Assembly (NCBI GenBank): GCA_001800675.1
Contig: MGVW01000035.1
Span: 6,731-70,730 of the forward strand
DNA from: Euryarchaeota archaeon RBG_13_57_23
Lineage (GTDB): Archaea > Thermoplasmatota > Thermoplasmata > UBA10834
Length of the DNA: 64,000 bases
Direction: 5' to 3'
Part shown: piece by piece, positions 61,806-63,954 of the stretch
Layout of the letters: every line of letters starts with the position of its first letter
How positions within the stretch are numbered: position 1 is the first letter of the stretch
Notes under the pieces: generated by a model
Database searches by the model: none
The model's input: the letters and a program-made list of their open reading frames with translations, nothing else
What the model was told of the DNA's origin: nothing
Translations under genes and position numbers: made by a program

Positions 61806-62585
61806 TCACAGGAGCCTGAGGATTATCTGTTGCAGTCCAGGGACGGTGTCGAACCTCGACACATCCCCCGGTTGTATCCATTCGAGAGATTGATGCTCCC
61901 AGTCGGTCCGGACATGGCGATCCTTCACATCGAACAGGAACGGGTGGACGCACCAGATGGTCGGGCCGTCCCTGAAGCACTGCGTGTCGATGTGTTTTGA
62001 GAGTCTCGCTCTGTCCCGTCCGATTTCCTCCTTCAGCTCACGCCTTGCAGCCGACTCGTCCGACTCTCCGCTCTCGATGAACCCGGACACGCCGGCCCAC
62101 ATGCCATTGTATGAGCCGACCTTGTCGCTCCTCTGGAGAAGCAGTATTCTCCCGGCGTTGCGGACGATGCACGTCACAACATGCCTCTCGTCTAACCCTA
62201 TGATCTCGACTGTTCCCCTGTTGGCATCCACAGACACATCGTCTCCAGTTCTCAGAAGGCCGACATCGATTCCGTCGACCATCGGCACATCGGCAATTAT
62301 GGCTCCCGTGGCCACTATCGGCTCTGCCGAGTTGTTGATTATCGCTGCCGGAGCCTTCTTGTTCAATCTCAGCTGGTACAGCGCGTAGGAGCCGACTGTG
62401 CTCCCCTTTCCGAACGGGAAGCAGAAGATCCTCCCGGAGATGCTCTCTCCTCTGGACTCGCACTCCTCATCCATGATTCTTCCAGTTAGCGGGTCAACGC
62501 CACCGAGGAACGAGATCGGGCTCTTGCAGACGACCGCCTTCCCCGAGGCCATCCCTCCCCTGATCCGCCTGCCCACAAACTTCAT
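61806..62585 (-). CDS. Fusion: aconitase-X swivel subunit (DUF126; putative phosphomevalonate dehydratase small subunit) plus Nudix hydrolase
   Basis: The N-terminal ~130 aa read SPISFLGGVDPLTG...FPFGKGSTVGSYALY (DUF126 pattern). The C-terminal ~125 aa carry a canonical Nudix box, GFIESGESDESAARRELKEEIG. The ATG at 62585 forms an ATGA overlap with the upstream gene. Confidence 0.8.
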   Translation of the reverse strand: MKFVGRRIRGGMASGKAVVCKSPISFLGGVDPLTGRIMDEECESRGESISGRIFCFPFGKGSTVGSYALYQLRLNKKAPAAIINNSAEPIVATGAIIADVPMVDGIDVGLLRTGDDVSVDANRGTVEIIGLDERHVVTCIVRNAGRILLLQRSDKVGSYNGMWAGVSGFIESGESDESAARRELKEEIGRDRARLSKHIDTQCFRDGPTIWCVHPFLFDVKDRHVRTDWEHQSLEWIQPGDVSRFDTVPGLQQIILRLL

Positions 62586-63763
62586 CTTGAGATCGCCTCC
62601 AGGAGAGCTGTCGTTGTCCGGAAGGACGCGCGTTGCCTGCCCAAGGTAGGCAAGTAGACCATCGCCTTTCCGCTGTCGGAGGCGGTCCGCTTGTACATCG
62701 ACTCGATTGGCGCGACTACCATGCACGTGTCGCATAGCACCTTTCCGAATTTCCGAAGGATTCCGATTTCCTTGGGGCAACTTCTGTAAACGTTTCTGGA
62801 GGTGCAGAACCAGACATCGCTGCTATTGGCTGGTTTCCGTCGCTTGAGATAACTGGCCATGCGCTTGATCTCGTTTCTTGAGCAGTGAGGGCACCCGATG
62901 GCCACGAGGTCCCAGTCATCATCCCCTCTCAGCCCGTCCGATAGCGACTCGAGCTCAGATATGGGCAGGGCGACGCGCTCTTCAATGAGAGAGGTGTCCA
63001 CCCTCTCCCGGTCGCCAGGCGCAGCGAACTCGTACATCGACACGGCACCGGTTGCTGCCATGGCGGCTCCGAATGCCTTGTGCTGGTCGGCAGTGAGCCG
63101 AAGGCCCGGCAGATACGGTATCCGCTTCCCCGCGATCTTGCCAACCAAGAACCCCGCCAGAGGTGCCAATCCCTCAGGAATCTCCTGAATGTCGATCCTA
63201 ACTCTGGGCGCCCTGTTCTCTGCAAGGTGCAAGCCGTATTCAGCTGTCTTTCCTATTATTGCCGCCGCCAGCGCGGATGGCCCGCCCTCCCTGTTGGTCA
63301 TGGCACCTAGATACGAGTTCGCGAACACGGTGGCTGATGATTCCGCCCAGGCTATGTGCTGACCCCCGCGAGGCCTGTTCCCAGCTAGATACGGCGTGCA
63401 AGTGTACAGTGGTTCAACGCCAAGAGACGCGTACGCTCTGACTATCCTCTCTTGCTTGGCGTGGAACTGCGAGCCTACCCCCATGGTCTTCCAGCGCCTC
63501 ACGTCCATGCCCAGGGGGTTCAATGAGGCCCTCACCGTGACCCTGGCCTGCTCGGAGAAGTCCTCGAGGAACTTGATGCCAGCGTCTCCAATCGTCTTGA
63601 AGGACGCTCCTGAGACCTGGGCGGAGGAGATCGGTATCAATCTCTTGGCTCGGTAGATGTCGCCGAGAGCGACCAGCAGCTCCATCGCCTTCTGTCTGCC
63701 GTGTCCTTCCTCGCCGACGAGAATGCGCTCTTCTCGGGCGGTTAGATGCATCGAACTGGTCAT
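62582..63763 (-). CDS. Aconitase-X catalytic subunit (DUF521; putative phosphomevalonate dehydratase large subunit)
   Basis: 393 aa. Its size and sequence pattern fit the DUF521 family, and it is translationally coupled to the DUF126-containing gene downstream. Confidence 0.75.
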   Translation of the reverse strand: MTSSMHLTAREERILVGEEGHGRQKAMELLVALGDIYRAKRLIPISSAQVSGASFKTIGDAGIKFLEDFSEQARVTVRASLNPLGMDVRRWKTMGVGSQFHAKQERIVRAYASLGVEPLYTCTPYLAGNRPRGGQHIAWAESSATVFANSYLGAMTNREGGPSALAAAIIGKTAEYGLHLAENRAPRVRIDIQEIPEGLAPLAGFLVGKIAGKRIPYLPGLRLTADQHKAFGAAMAATGAVSMYEFAAPGDRERVDTSLIEERVALPISELESLSDGLRGDDDWDLVAIGCPHCSRNEIKRMASYLKRRKPANSSDVWFCTSRNVYRSCPKEIGILRKFGKVLCDTCMVVAPIESMYKRTASDSGKAMVYLPTLGRQRASFRTTTALLEAISR

Positions 63764-63813
63764 TAGTGGACGCGTATAATAGAATGATGGAGGAGGGAGC
63801 GGGCCTGTCGGGA

Positions 63814-63836
63814 ATTTCGGGGATCTCCAAATCCCA
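63814..63836 (-). other. tRNA-Arg intron 2 (T-loop, position 59/60)
   Basis: TGGGATTTGGAGATCCCCGAAAT. The central helix TTCG/CGAA is flanked by the 3-nt bulges AA|T and AT|T, with an inner hairpin GGGAT-TTGGAG-ATCCC. Confidence 0.7.
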
Positions 63837-63857
63837 TTCGAACCCGAGTTTGAGGCT

Positions 63858-63880
63858 GTCTCCAGCGCGTTAAGTGCGCT
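63858..63880 (-). other. tRNA-Arg intron 1 (canonical position 37/38)
   Basis: AGCGCACTTAACGCGCTGGAGAC. The central 4-bp helix CTCC/GGAG is flanked by the 3-nt bulges GG|A and AC|A, with an inner hairpin GCGC-ACTTAAC-GCGC. Confidence 0.7.
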
Positions 63881-63940
63881 CCGGAGGCCTCAGTGATATC
63901 CAAGCTACACTACAGGCCCGTTTCCGTTGAAAGCCTAGTC

Positions 63941-63954
63941 CGTATATCTATCTT
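63941..63954 (-). promoter_or_regulatory. TATA box upstream of tRNA-Arg
   Basis: The minus strand reads AAGATAGATATACG, ending about 22 nt upstream of the tRNA 5' end. This matches the archaeal -26/-27 TATA position. Confidence 0.5.

What the first reader, a model, noticed from the sequence alone, without database searches (positions are those of the whole stretch)
63800..63919. tRNA-Arg(CCG) gene interrupted by two 23-nt introns, each with a textbook bulge-helix-bulge motif (37/38 and 59/60)
**Seen in the sequence (minus strand):** GGGCCTGTAGTGTAGCTTGGATATCACTGAGGCCTCCGG[AGCGCACTTAACGCGCTGGAGAC]AGCCTCAAACTCGGGTTCGAA[TGGGATTTGGAGATCCCCGAAAT]TCCCGACAGGCCCG.
- Intron 1: the 4-bp helix CTCC/GGAG is flanked by the 3-nt bulges GG|A and AC|A, with the anticodon stem as the outer helix.
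- Intron 2: the 4-bp helix TTCG/CGAA is flanked by the bulges AA|T and AT|T, with the T-stem as the outer helix.
- Both predicted cuts regenerate a normal 74-nt cloverleaf with a CTCCGGA anticodon loop and a TTCGAAT T-loop.
- The other three tRNA genes in the window (Leu, Ser, Ile) have no introns.

**Established knowledge:** non-canonical and multiple tRNA introns are typical of Thermoproteales and a few other, mostly uncultured, archaeal lineages, and they require a splicing endonuclease with relaxed specificity.

**Inference:** this is a useful lineage marker. It also predicts a heteromeric or broad-specificity EndA in this genome.
Basis: partly seen in the sequence, partly recalled or inferred. 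Interest (0 to 1): 0.6.

Follow-up and report, generated by a model that had tools for sequence, protein, structure and literature searches.

The report
Two-intron arginine tRNA gene in Thermoplasmata
This is a real, conserved arginine tRNA gene split by two short protein-spliced introns, one in the unusual T-loop position, and it sits in an archaeal group (Thermoplasmata) whose splicing enzyme type is said in reviews to handle only one intron at the standard position.

Summary
Window 63800-63919 (minus strand) encodes a 120-nt pre-tRNA-Arg(CCG). Removing two 23-nt introns (37/38 and 59/60) gives a 74-nt cloverleaf that ARAGORN calls tRNA-Arg(CCG).

- **Intron 2:** a strict 3-4-3 bulge-helix-bulge (BHB), strict in 46 of 47 distinct orthologues. 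All five inner-helix pairs show compensatory changes.
- **Intron 1:** it has the 3-4-3 core and a covarying closing pair, but its inner helix is interrupted by one bulged base, so it is not quite "textbook".
- **Conservation:** the gene is single-copy, has a conserved TATA-like box, and lies at the same syntenic site in dozens of relatives.

The genome is an uncultured Thermoplasmata archaeon, not Thermoproteales. Of 61 relatives, 59 (18/18 in the same genus) encode one two-unit alpha'2-type EndA. The one examined in detail (same genus) has no crenarchaeal-type specificity loop. EndA is missing from this 75%-complete MAG through an assembly gap; RtcB ligase is present.

A second non-canonical intron (D-loop 20/21 of tRNA-Thr(CGU)), also with a strict motif, is conserved across the order.

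This is a known kind of feature. The lineage and enzyme setting contradict published generalisations. No RNA-level proof of splicing was obtained.

The parts
63800..63919 (-). Complete pre-tRNA-Arg(CCG) gene: 120 nt, three exons and two introns. No CCA is encoded.
   Evidence: Sequence read. The spliced 74-nt product is called tRNA-Arg(ccg) by ARAGORN. The full-length gene is conserved in relatives.
63881..63919 (-). Exon 1, tRNA positions 1-37: acceptor 5' strand, D-arm, anticodon stem 5' strand, and loop CUCCGG.
   Evidence: It is nearly invariant across 51 distinct orthologues.
63858..63880 (-). Intron 1, 23 nt, canonical position 37/38. The outer helix is the anticodon stem, the central helix is CUCC/GGAG, and the bulges are GG|A and AC|A. 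The inner helix GCGC/GCGC is offset by one base.
   Evidence: Across orthologues 85.9% of cells pair against 78.2% in shuffles (0/500). The closing pair is kept in 34/35 sequences with 5 pair types.
63837..63857 (-). Exon 2, tRNA positions 38-59: A38, anticodon stem 3' strand, 4-nt variable loop, T-stem 5' strand, and UUCGAA.
63814..63836 (-). Intron 2, 23 nt, non-canonical position 59/60 in the T-loop. It is a strict hBHBh': the outer helix is the T-stem, the central helix is UUCG/CGAA, the bulges are AA|U and AU|U, and the inner helix is GGGAU(U)/(G)AUCCC.
   Evidence: strict in 46/47 distinct orthologues. Covariation: 96.8% paired against 84.2% in shuffles (0/500), and all 5 inner pairs are compensatory.
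63800..63813 (-). Exon 3, tRNA positions 60-73: U60, T-stem 3' strand, acceptor 3' strand, and discriminator G73.
63943..63950 (-). TAGATATA box at -31..-24 from the mature 5' end; a probable archaeal TATA box for the tRNA gene.
   Evidence: The box is conserved in every orthologous upstream region, while the flanking sequence diverges. That it acts as a promoter is inferred.

Best explanation
Window 63800-63919 (minus strand) is the single functional gene for tRNA-Arg(CCG) of an uncultured Thermoplasmata archaeon.

**Proposed pathway**
1. The gene is transcribed from a conserved TATA-like box as a precursor of about 120 nt.
2. The precursor folds into two bulge-helix-bulge (BHB) motifs. One is at the canonical 37/38 site, built on the anticodon stem. 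The other is at 59/60 in the T-loop, built on the T-stem.
3. The archaeal splicing endonuclease EndA cuts after the second base of each 3-nt bulge.
4. RtcB ligase joins the three exons into a 74-nt tRNA, and CCA is added afterwards.

**The enzyme**
In this lineage the endonuclease is a single-polypeptide, two-unit alpha'2-type EndA without the crenarchaeal-type specificity loop. It is therefore expected to act by recognising the strict 3-4-3 motif wherever it occurs, not by recognising position. This fits the near-perfect strictness of the T-loop intron across relatives.

**Shown and inferred**
- Shown: the sequence, the fold, the cloverleaf after removal, conservation, covariation, synteny, the relatives' enzyme repertoire, and RtcB in this genome.
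- Inferred: transcription, actual cleavage and ligation, and that this genome's own EndA (unassembled) resembles its congeners'.
For: **The gene and its introns**
- ARAGORN calls the spliced product tRNA-Arg(CCG).
- The precursor fold has z = -4.55 and shows both hairpins.
- It is the only locus in 1.52 Mb that needs a BHB removal plus an anticodon-loop intron.

**Conservation**
- The full-length interrupted gene is present in 17 of 18 same-genus genomes, in most of the family, in all 3 other genomes of the same order, and in further families.
- It always lies just upstream of the same AcnX-like gene.
- Exons are nearly invariant. Introns vary in sequence and length: intron 1 is 13-42 nt and intron 2 is 20-47 nt.

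**BHB support**
- Intron 2 is strict in 46/47 distinct orthologues. It has 65 compensatory cells, and 0/500 shuffles reach the observed score.
- Intron 1 pairs in 85.9% of cells against 78.2% in shuffles (0/500), and its closing pair covaries.

**Single copy and needed**
- There is no second Arg(CCG) copy in this genome or in a closed 98%-complete genome of the same genus.
- CGG codons occur at 7.4 per 1000.
- The upstream TAGATATA box is conserved.

**Enzymes**
- RtcB scores 594 bits in this genome.
- An alpha'2-type EndA is present in 59/61 relatives and lacks the CSL.

**Literature and a second case**
- The Ferroplasma (Thermoplasmata) alpha'2 EndA cuts minimal BHBs placed in arbitrary hairpins (PMC8707768).
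- A second strict BHB intron at a non-canonical site (tRNA-Thr(CGU), D-loop 20/21) is conserved across the order.
Against: - There is no RNA-level evidence of splicing. The one informative metatranscriptome shows only an unspliced contig from a relative plus 5'-exon fragments, and no joints.
- EndA was not found in this MAG. Its type is inferred from relatives.
- Wild-type A. fulgidus alpha'2 EndA 'hardly cleaved' a BHB intron in a D-loop in vitro (PMC3241643), so position-independence of alpha'2 enzymes is not established biochemically.
- In this genus intron 1's inner helix is irregular, and the nearest-neighbour MFE extends the central helix instead of forming the 5' bulge. The BHB conformer lies about 2 kcal/mol above the local MFE.
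Confidence: 0.9

Rival explanations
1. One reading: the two introns need a heteromeric (alpha-beta)2 EndA or another broad-specificity EndA, because one intron is non-canonical. Under this view the lineage would have a crenarchaeal- or ARMAN-type enzyme or a specificity loop.
For: - Reviews link non-canonical and multiple introns to (alpha-beta)2 or epsilon2 enzymes or to loop inserts (PMC5829648, PMC4033280).
- AFU alpha'2 cut a D-loop BHB poorly (PMC3241643).
- Intron 1 is not strictly canonical in this genus.
- This genome's own EndA is unassembled, so it was not seen directly.
Against: - All 18 same-genus genomes, and 59/61 relatives overall, have just one EndA open frame with two units and no other hit above the family cut-off.
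- The domain order is N-C-N-C.
- The catalytic repeat is colinear with the M. jannaschii alpha4 and AFU alpha'2 enzymes. It has a gap exactly at the A. pernix CSL.
- The non-canonical introns are the ones with the strictest motifs, as expected for a narrow-motif enzyme.
Confidence: 0.06
2. The locus is a decaying or non-functional tRNA pseudogene, with the two inserts being neutral insertions. CGG codons would then be read by another tRNA-Arg such as UCG.
For: - Standard tRNA finders do not call it.
- No RNA proof of splicing was obtained.
- tRNA-Arg(UCG) could in principle read CGG by wobble (general knowledge). It was not found in this incomplete MAG.
Against: - Exons are almost invariant across families while the introns diverge and still keep the BHB through compensatory changes.
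- The promoter box and the synteny are conserved.
- No other Arg(CCG) copy exists in a closed genome of the same genus.
- Intron-less orthologues in other families occupy the same syntenic site, so this is the orthologous functional gene.
Confidence: 0.02
3. Only the anticodon-loop intron is removed. The T-loop insert stays in the mature RNA as an extra hairpin, giving an unusual tRNA with an expanded T-arm.
For: Nothing direct. It rests only on the lack of RNA data and on published doubt that alpha'2 enzymes cut outside the anticodon loop (PMC3241643).
Against: - The insert keeps a precise 3-4-3 BHB in 46/47 distinct orthologues although its length ranges from 20 to 47 nt. That is the signature of selection for EndA cleavage, not for a structural arm.
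- Excision restores the universal UUCGAAU T-loop.
- Intron-less orthologues have exactly that T-loop.
Confidence: 0.02

Closest known systems
ARMAN-2 (Ca. [quoted passage not shown]
   Same: The T-loop insertion site (59/60) is the same. There is a strict 3-4-3 BHB built on the T-stem, more than one intron in a gene, and standard tRNA finders miss the gene.
   Different: - ARMAN-2 uses a three-unit epsilon2 EndA with a specificity loop (ASL). Here the lineage has a two-unit alpha'2 EndA without that loop.
- Here the second intron is at the canonical 37/38 site.
- The phylum is different.
Multi-intron tRNA genes of Thermoproteales and other Crenarchaeota (Sugahara 2008, as summarised in PMC4090602 and PMC4033280)
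   Same: One tRNA gene carries a canonical and a non-canonical BHB intron. 59/60 is among the listed insertion positions.
   Different: - Those lineages have (alpha-beta)2 EndA with the crenarchaea-specific loop, many relaxed motifs, and up to three introns in over half of their genes.
- This genome has 9 of about 31 tRNA genes interrupted. Only two introns are at non-canonical sites, and both of those are strict.
Methanopyrus kandleri pre-tRNA-Glu(UUC), with a canonical intron plus a non-canonical D-loop intron (Kaneta 2018, PMC5829648)
   Same: It is a euryarchaeal tRNA with one canonical and one non-canonical intron, and its EndA also lacks a specificity loop.
   Different: M. kandleri has a heterotetrameric (alpha-beta)2 enzyme and a relaxed HBh' intron. 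Here the enzyme is alpha'2, and the non-canonical intron is strict and lies in the T-loop.
[quoted passage not shown]
   Same: A two-unit, single-chain EndA occurs together with introns at non-canonical positions.
   Different: The Korarchaeum enzyme carries the L1/CSL loop and is regarded as a lineage-specific fusion. The Thermoplasmata enzyme here has no such insert.

Membership tests
Archaeal protein-spliced (BHB) tRNA intron | The exon-intron junctions form two 3-nt bulges on opposite strands, separated by a 4-bp helix and flanked by helices (hBHBh'). | tested here: met
   - Intron 2 is strict: H 4 bp, outer 5 bp, inner 6 bp.
- Intron 1 has the 3-4-3 core and the outer helix. Its inner helix is interrupted by one bulged base.
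Archaeal protein-spliced (BHB) tRNA intron | Cutting after the second base of each bulge and joining the exons gives a standard cloverleaf tRNA. | tested here: met
   ARAGORN calls the 74-nt product tRNA-Arg(ccg), with a 7-nt anticodon loop CUCCGGA and T-loop UUCGAAU.
Archaeal protein-spliced (BHB) tRNA intron | The motif is maintained by selection, shown by compensatory changes in the helices across relatives. | tested here: met
   - (intron 2): 65 compensatory cells and 0/500 shuffles reaching the observed score.
- (intron 1): 45 compensatory cells and 0/500 shuffles.
Archaeal protein-spliced (BHB) tRNA intron | The genome encodes the splicing endonuclease EndA and the RtcB ligase. | tested here: inconclusive
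   - RtcB is present.
- EndA is absent from this 75%-complete MAG, along with its neighbouring gene.
- EndA is present in 18/18 same-genus genomes.
Archaeal protein-spliced (BHB) tRNA intron | The spliced RNA and/or the excised intron is observed. | tested here: inconclusive
   Metatranscriptome contigs show an unspliced form from a relative and 5'-exon pieces, with no joints. Assembled contigs are a poor probe for mature tRNA.
Thermoproteales-type disrupted tRNA system ((alpha-beta)2 EndA with the crenarchaea-specific loop) | The organism belongs to Thermoproteales or Crenarchaeota. | tested here: not met
   The closest relatives of the flanking gene and of the tRNA are all Thermoplasmata/Thermoplasmatota MAGs.
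Thermoproteales-type disrupted tRNA system ((alpha-beta)2 EndA with the crenarchaea-specific loop) | There are separate alpha and beta EndA subunit genes, and the alpha subunit carries the CSL (with its conserved Lys). | tested here: not met
   Relatives have one open frame with two units, and there is a gap at the CSL relative to A. pernix 3P1Z_B. This was tested on congeners, not on this genome's own unassembled gene.
alpha'2-type EndA (assessed on the same-genus protein from G004) | A single polypeptide carries two tandem EndA units, and only the C-terminal unit has the Tyr/His/Lys catalytic triad. | tested here: met
   - Pfam finds PF02778 twice and PF01974 twice in 351 aa.
- It aligns full-length with AFU 1R0V and 2GJW.
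- Read directly from the sequence: the C-terminal unit has FRAY...QHARY...GVKKE, and the N-terminal unit has DFRVF...SKWWV, with no Tyr or His.
tRNA-Arg(CCG) | The anticodon is CCG in a 7-nt loop, with class I tRNA geometry. | tested here: met
   Intron-less orthologues at the same syntenic site are also 74-nt tRNA-Arg(CCG) genes.

The most novel reading that the evidence does not exclude
An entire order-level clade of Thermoplasmata, and patchily other families of the class, depends on an alpha'2-type EndA lacking the crenarchaeal-type specificity loop to remove introns from the T-loop (Arg-CCG, 59/60) and the D-loop (Thr-CGU, 20/21) of single-copy tRNAs.

If this is confirmed biochemically:
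- EndA subunit architecture and loop inserts would not limit intron position; only motif strictness would.
- The textbook rule 'alpha4/alpha'2 means one intron at 37/38' would reflect history, not enzymology.
- The slightly irregular 37/38 intron of this genus would show that the enzyme also tolerates a 3x1 distortion at the 5' site.
Probability: 0.5. Interest if true: 0.6.

Novelty: new member of a known kind. Interest (0 to 1): 0.5.

Why it matters
- **Annotation.** ARAGORN's default mode and the Rfam tRNA model both miss this gene, so genome annotations of this widespread soil and sediment Thermoplasmata clade will lack tRNA-Arg(CCG) and miscall tRNA-Thr(CGU). That distorts tRNA-complement and completeness estimates.
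- **Biology.** Reviews state that Euryarchaeota with alpha4 or alpha2-type EndA carry only single introns at 37/38 (PMC4090602). They also state that Korarchaeum is the only alpha2 organism with non-canonical introns (PMC4033280). Here a loop-less alpha'2 lineage has kept T-loop and D-loop introns throughout its diversification, always with strict motifs.
- **A direct test.** This gives natural substrate-enzyme pairs for asking whether alpha'2 enzymes are position-independent but motif-strict. It also gives a presence/absence series (two introns, one intron, none) for studying intron gain and precise loss.

Tried and rejected
- **Standard finders.** ARAGORN's default mode and Rfam RF00005 do not detect the gene.
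- **My own scan error.** The first genome-wide BHB-splice scans used `aragorn -i10,130`. That setting reports only tRNAs that still contain an intron, so those scans could not see single non-canonical introns. I noticed this when the Thr(CGU) gene turned up by another route and reran without the flag.
- **ARAGORN false calls.** Calls with kilobase-long introns at C5:64214-65650 and C5:72434-74419, and 'tRNA-Gln' at C57:16839-17065, are false positives. No credible BHB solution exists for C57. 'Thr with a long variable arm' at C18 is really tRNA-Ser(GGA) with one canonical intron.
- **EndA in this genome.** The PF01974 scan and a tblastn with a same-genus EndA found nothing. Its neighbouring GAPDH gene is missing too, so I read this as an assembly gap, not gene loss.
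- **RNA evidence.** Of the four runs laid (two labelled metatranscriptomes, two of unknown type), none gave spliced joints.
- **Alternative registers for intron 1.** Shifted central helices or a 38/39 cut give mismatched outer helices or a 9-nt anticodon loop, so I rejected them by inspection. The +1 inner-helix register explains only part of the orthologues.
- **Unparsed relatives.** Four distant relatives (G041, G052, G053, G055) could not be parsed by my exon-anchored script and remain unclassified.
- **Not tested.** I did not formally test sequence similarity between this genome's introns (the transposition hypothesis).

Full report
**1. The observation.**

ARAGORN in default mode finds only the Leu, Ser and Ile tRNA genes of the window, and the Rfam tRNA model finds two of them. 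Both miss this locus.

The two proposed 23-nt segments start at precursor positions 40 and 84. Deleting both leaves 74 nt, which ARAGORN folds as tRNA-Arg(CCG): a 7-bp acceptor stem, anticodon loop CUCCGGA and T-loop UUCGAAU. Deleting intron 2 alone lets ARAGORN find intron 1 itself, as i(40,23).

The 120-nt precursor folds at -55 kcal/mol, against -37.7 +/- 3.8 for shuffles (z = -4.55, 0 of 200 as good). The fold is a cloverleaf frame with two extra hairpins.

In window coordinates:

| Part | Window coordinates |
|---|---|
| Exon 1 | 63919-63881 |
| Intron 1 | 63880-63858 |
| Exon 2 | 63857-63837 |
| Intron 2 | 63836-63814 |
| Exon 3 | 63813-63800 |

**2. Geometry of the two motifs.**

Intron 2 is a textbook hBHBh'. 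The T-stem (5 bp) is the outer helix and UUCG/CGAA is the 4-bp central helix. The bulges are AA|U and AU|U, and the inner helix has 5-6 bp.

Its inner helix GCGC/GCGC is one base out of strict register. Either U56 is bulged opposite the 5' bulge (local energy -18.2 against a local MFE of -20.3 kcal/mol), or a G.U pair closes the bulge and the next C is bulged. So 'textbook' is exact for intron 2 and approximate for intron 1.

**3. Is it more than chance?**

I wrote a SPLITS-like scan that finds BHB candidates, splices them in silico and reruns ARAGORN.

- Of 53,190 strict candidates in the 1.52-Mb assembly, this was the only locus where one BHB removal plus a remaining anticodon-loop intron gave a tRNA with an internal junction.
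- That run's ARAGORN setting reported only tRNAs that still contained an intron. I found this limitation later.
- The rerun without it recovers the genome's single-intron genes: Ser-GGA, Gln-CUG, Lys-CUU and Leu-UAA at 37/38, and Thr-CGU in the D-loop. It adds a few edge artefacts and no new loci.

**4. Who owns it.**

Earlier notes of this scan called the genome Thermoplasmata, and I checked this independently. The gene just downstream of the tRNA is an AcnX-like protein at 62582-63763 (minus strand). Its 80 best relatives in the genome collection start with 'Euryarchaeota archaeon RBG_19FT_COMBO_56_21' (84% identity). They continue through dozens of 'Thermoplasmata/Thermoplasmatota archaeon' MAGs, then Methanomassiliicoccales. 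The lineage is therefore not Thermoproteales.

**5. Comparative evidence.**

The whole 120-nt interrupted gene aligns end to end in 17 of 18 same-genus genomes, in most of the family, and in all three other genomes of the same order. In the named loci it always lies just upstream of the AcnX-like gene.

Parsing 51 distinct orthologous sequences, plus 24 parsed from a further 28 fetched regions, gives these states:

| State | Where it is found |
|---|---|
| Two introns | Own genus; genus g4; parts of g2 and g3; families f2, f8 and f13; two Methanomassiliicoccales MAGs |
| T-loop intron only | Parts of g2 and g3; one f11 genome |
| Anticodon-loop intron only | One f18 genome; one Methanomassiliicoccaceae MAG |
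| No intron (intact 74-nt gene at the same syntenic site) | Most Methanomassiliicoccales; families f3, f5, f6, f9, f10 and f12 |

Exons are almost invariant, while the introns vary in sequence and length (intron 1 13-42 nt, intron 2 20-47 nt).

- **Intron 2** is a strict hBHBh' in 46 of 47 distinct sequences. On a fixed-register alignment, 96.8% of cells pair against 84.2% in shuffles (0/500) and at most 69% in slid registers. All five inner-helix pairs show double (compensatory) changes, 65 cells in total. The central helix varies only between U-A and U.G.
- **Intron 1** pairs in 85.9% of cells against 78.2% in shuffles (0/500). Its outer helix pairs in 100% of cells, its central helix in 92% and its inner helix in 67% in strict register. 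The pair that closes the 5' bulge is kept in 34 of 35 sequences through five pair types. It is strict in only 14 of 42 distinct sequences.

An upstream TAGATATA box at -31..-24 is conserved in all orthologues while its flanks drift. No second Arg(CCG) gene appears in this genome or in a closed, 98%-complete genome of the same genus. CGG codons are used at 7.4 per 1000. Together these exclude a pseudogene.

**6. The enzymes.**

RtcB ligase is encoded in this genome (594 bits). EndA is not found, either with PF01974 or by tblastn with a same-genus EndA. The GAPDH gene that flanks endA in relatives is also absent. Since the MAG is 75% complete, this is an assembly gap.

Of 61 relatives, 59 (18/18 in the same genus) have exactly two PF01974 matches about 300 nt apart in one open frame of roughly 350-390 aa, and no other hit above the family cut-off.

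For the same-genus protein (351 aa):

- It has the domain order N-C-N-C.
- It aligns full-length with the fused M. kandleri enzyme 5X89 and with the A. fulgidus alpha'2 structures 1R0V and 2GJW.
- Its C-terminal unit carries the Tyr/His/Lys motifs, while its N-terminal unit has Phe and Trp at the Tyr and His positions (read).
- Against A. pernix alpha (3P1Z_B) it has a gap exactly where the crenarchaea-specific loop lies. It is colinear with the M. jannaschii alpha4 and AFU enzymes there.

So the lineage has an alpha'2-type EndA without the crenarchaeal-type specificity loop.

**7. A second case in the same genome.**

The locus that ARAGORN called 'Pyl' or 'Gly' at C5:74315-74416 is tRNA-Thr(CGU), with a 30-nt strict hBHBh' intron between T20 and A21 in the D-loop (H 4 bp, outer 4 bp, inner 7 bp). 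The interrupted gene is full-length in about 39 genomes of the family and order. Other families match only the 3' half. The motif is strict in 23 of 25 distinct orthologues, with many compensatory changes.

In all, 9 of about 31 tRNA genes found in this MAG carry introns (10 introns). Two introns are at non-canonical positions, and both have strict motifs.

**8. Mechanism.**

The most likely mechanism is the standard archaeal pathway. The precursor forms both BHBs, EndA cuts after the second bulge base at four sites, and RtcB joins the three exons.

In this alpha'2 lineage the non-canonical introns are the ones with near-perfect motifs, while the canonical intron is allowed small irregularities. 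That fits an enzyme that is strict on motif but indifferent to position.

- Published support: alpha4 and alpha2 enzymes need the strict 3-4-3 motif (PMC3239211). The Ferroplasma alpha'2 enzyme cuts minimal BHBs inserted in arbitrary hairpins (PMC8707768).

**9. RNA evidence.**

DNA metagenomes from soil, sediment and wetland hold the locus. I laid four runs on the locus: two labelled metatranscriptomes and two of unknown type.

- One metatranscriptome yielded a 386-nt contig from a close relative that spans both introns unspliced. It could be pre-tRNA or carried-over DNA.
- It also held short 5'-exon contigs at higher depth.
- No spliced joints were seen.

This neither supports nor refutes splicing.

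**10. Comparison with what is known, and novelty.**

BHB introns at 59/60 and multi-intron tRNAs are known in Thermoproteales, ARMAN-2, M. kandleri and Korarchaeum (PMC4090602, PMC3239211, PMC5829648, PMC4033280).

What differs here is the setting.

[quoted passage not shown] - My four literature searches found no report of such introns in Thermoplasmata.
- Other notes of this scan describe similar T-loop and D-loop introns in other Thermoplasmata tRNAs. They are unchecked AI notes that agree with this picture, not independent proof.

I therefore rate this as a new member of a known kind, of moderate interest.

Noticed in passing
L152 (= G000:C5:74315-74416, + strand; outside the window): This is tRNA-Thr(CGU), interrupted by a 30-nt strict hBHBh' intron at D-loop position 20/21. 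ARAGORN miscalls it as Pyl or Gly. The interrupted gene is conserved across the family and order, and the motif is strict in 23/25 distinct orthologues.
   Followed up: yes
Whole assembly G000: About 9 of 31 detected tRNA genes (29%) carry introns: Ser-GGA, Ser-GCU, Gln-CUG, Lys-CUU, Leu-UAA, Tyr-GUA, a CAU-type tRNA at C45, Thr-CGU and Arg-CCG. This is well above the '<10%' quoted for Euryarchaeota in PMC4090602.
   Followed up: partly
L003, L018-L020, L023, L035, L129-L134 compared with L006 and L007 (genera g2 and g3 of the same family): Within single genera, some species have both introns and others lack exactly intron 1 while keeping intron 2. This looks like repeated precise loss (or gain) of the 37/38 intron. 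The mechanism is unknown.
   Followed up: partly
window 63775-63782 (-) and 63751-63763 (-): A second conserved box, CTATTATA, lies 18-25 nt after the tRNA. Most relatives of the AcnX-like protein align only from residue 4-5. The gene therefore probably starts at the second Met (63751) on a leaderless mRNA driven by that box.
   Followed up: no
Relatives G001-G060, EndA loci (e.g. L111-L122): In most Thermoplasmata families the N-terminal (structural) EndA unit still matches the full PF01974 model at 47-80 bits. In G051, G047 and G059 only a truncated or weak match remains. This recalls the C-terminal-domain deletion noted for Thermoplasmatales, Halobacteriales and Archaeoglobales alpha' units in PMC5829648.
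   Followed up: no
G000:C45:13405-13512 (-): ARAGORN calls this 'tRNA-Ser(cga)' at 77 nt with an intron at 35/36. With the intron placed at 37/38, the anticodon loop reads CUCAUAA, so it is probably a CAU tRNA (Met or Ile2) with a 31-nt intron. I did not resolve its BHB register.
   Followed up: no
L136, L139 (family f8 of the class): Here the Arg(CCG) anticodon-loop intron is only 13-15 nt (for example TTCGTCAGGAGAA). The inner helix shrinks to a single closing pair on a tetraloop, which is close to the minimum possible for a BHB.
   Followed up: no
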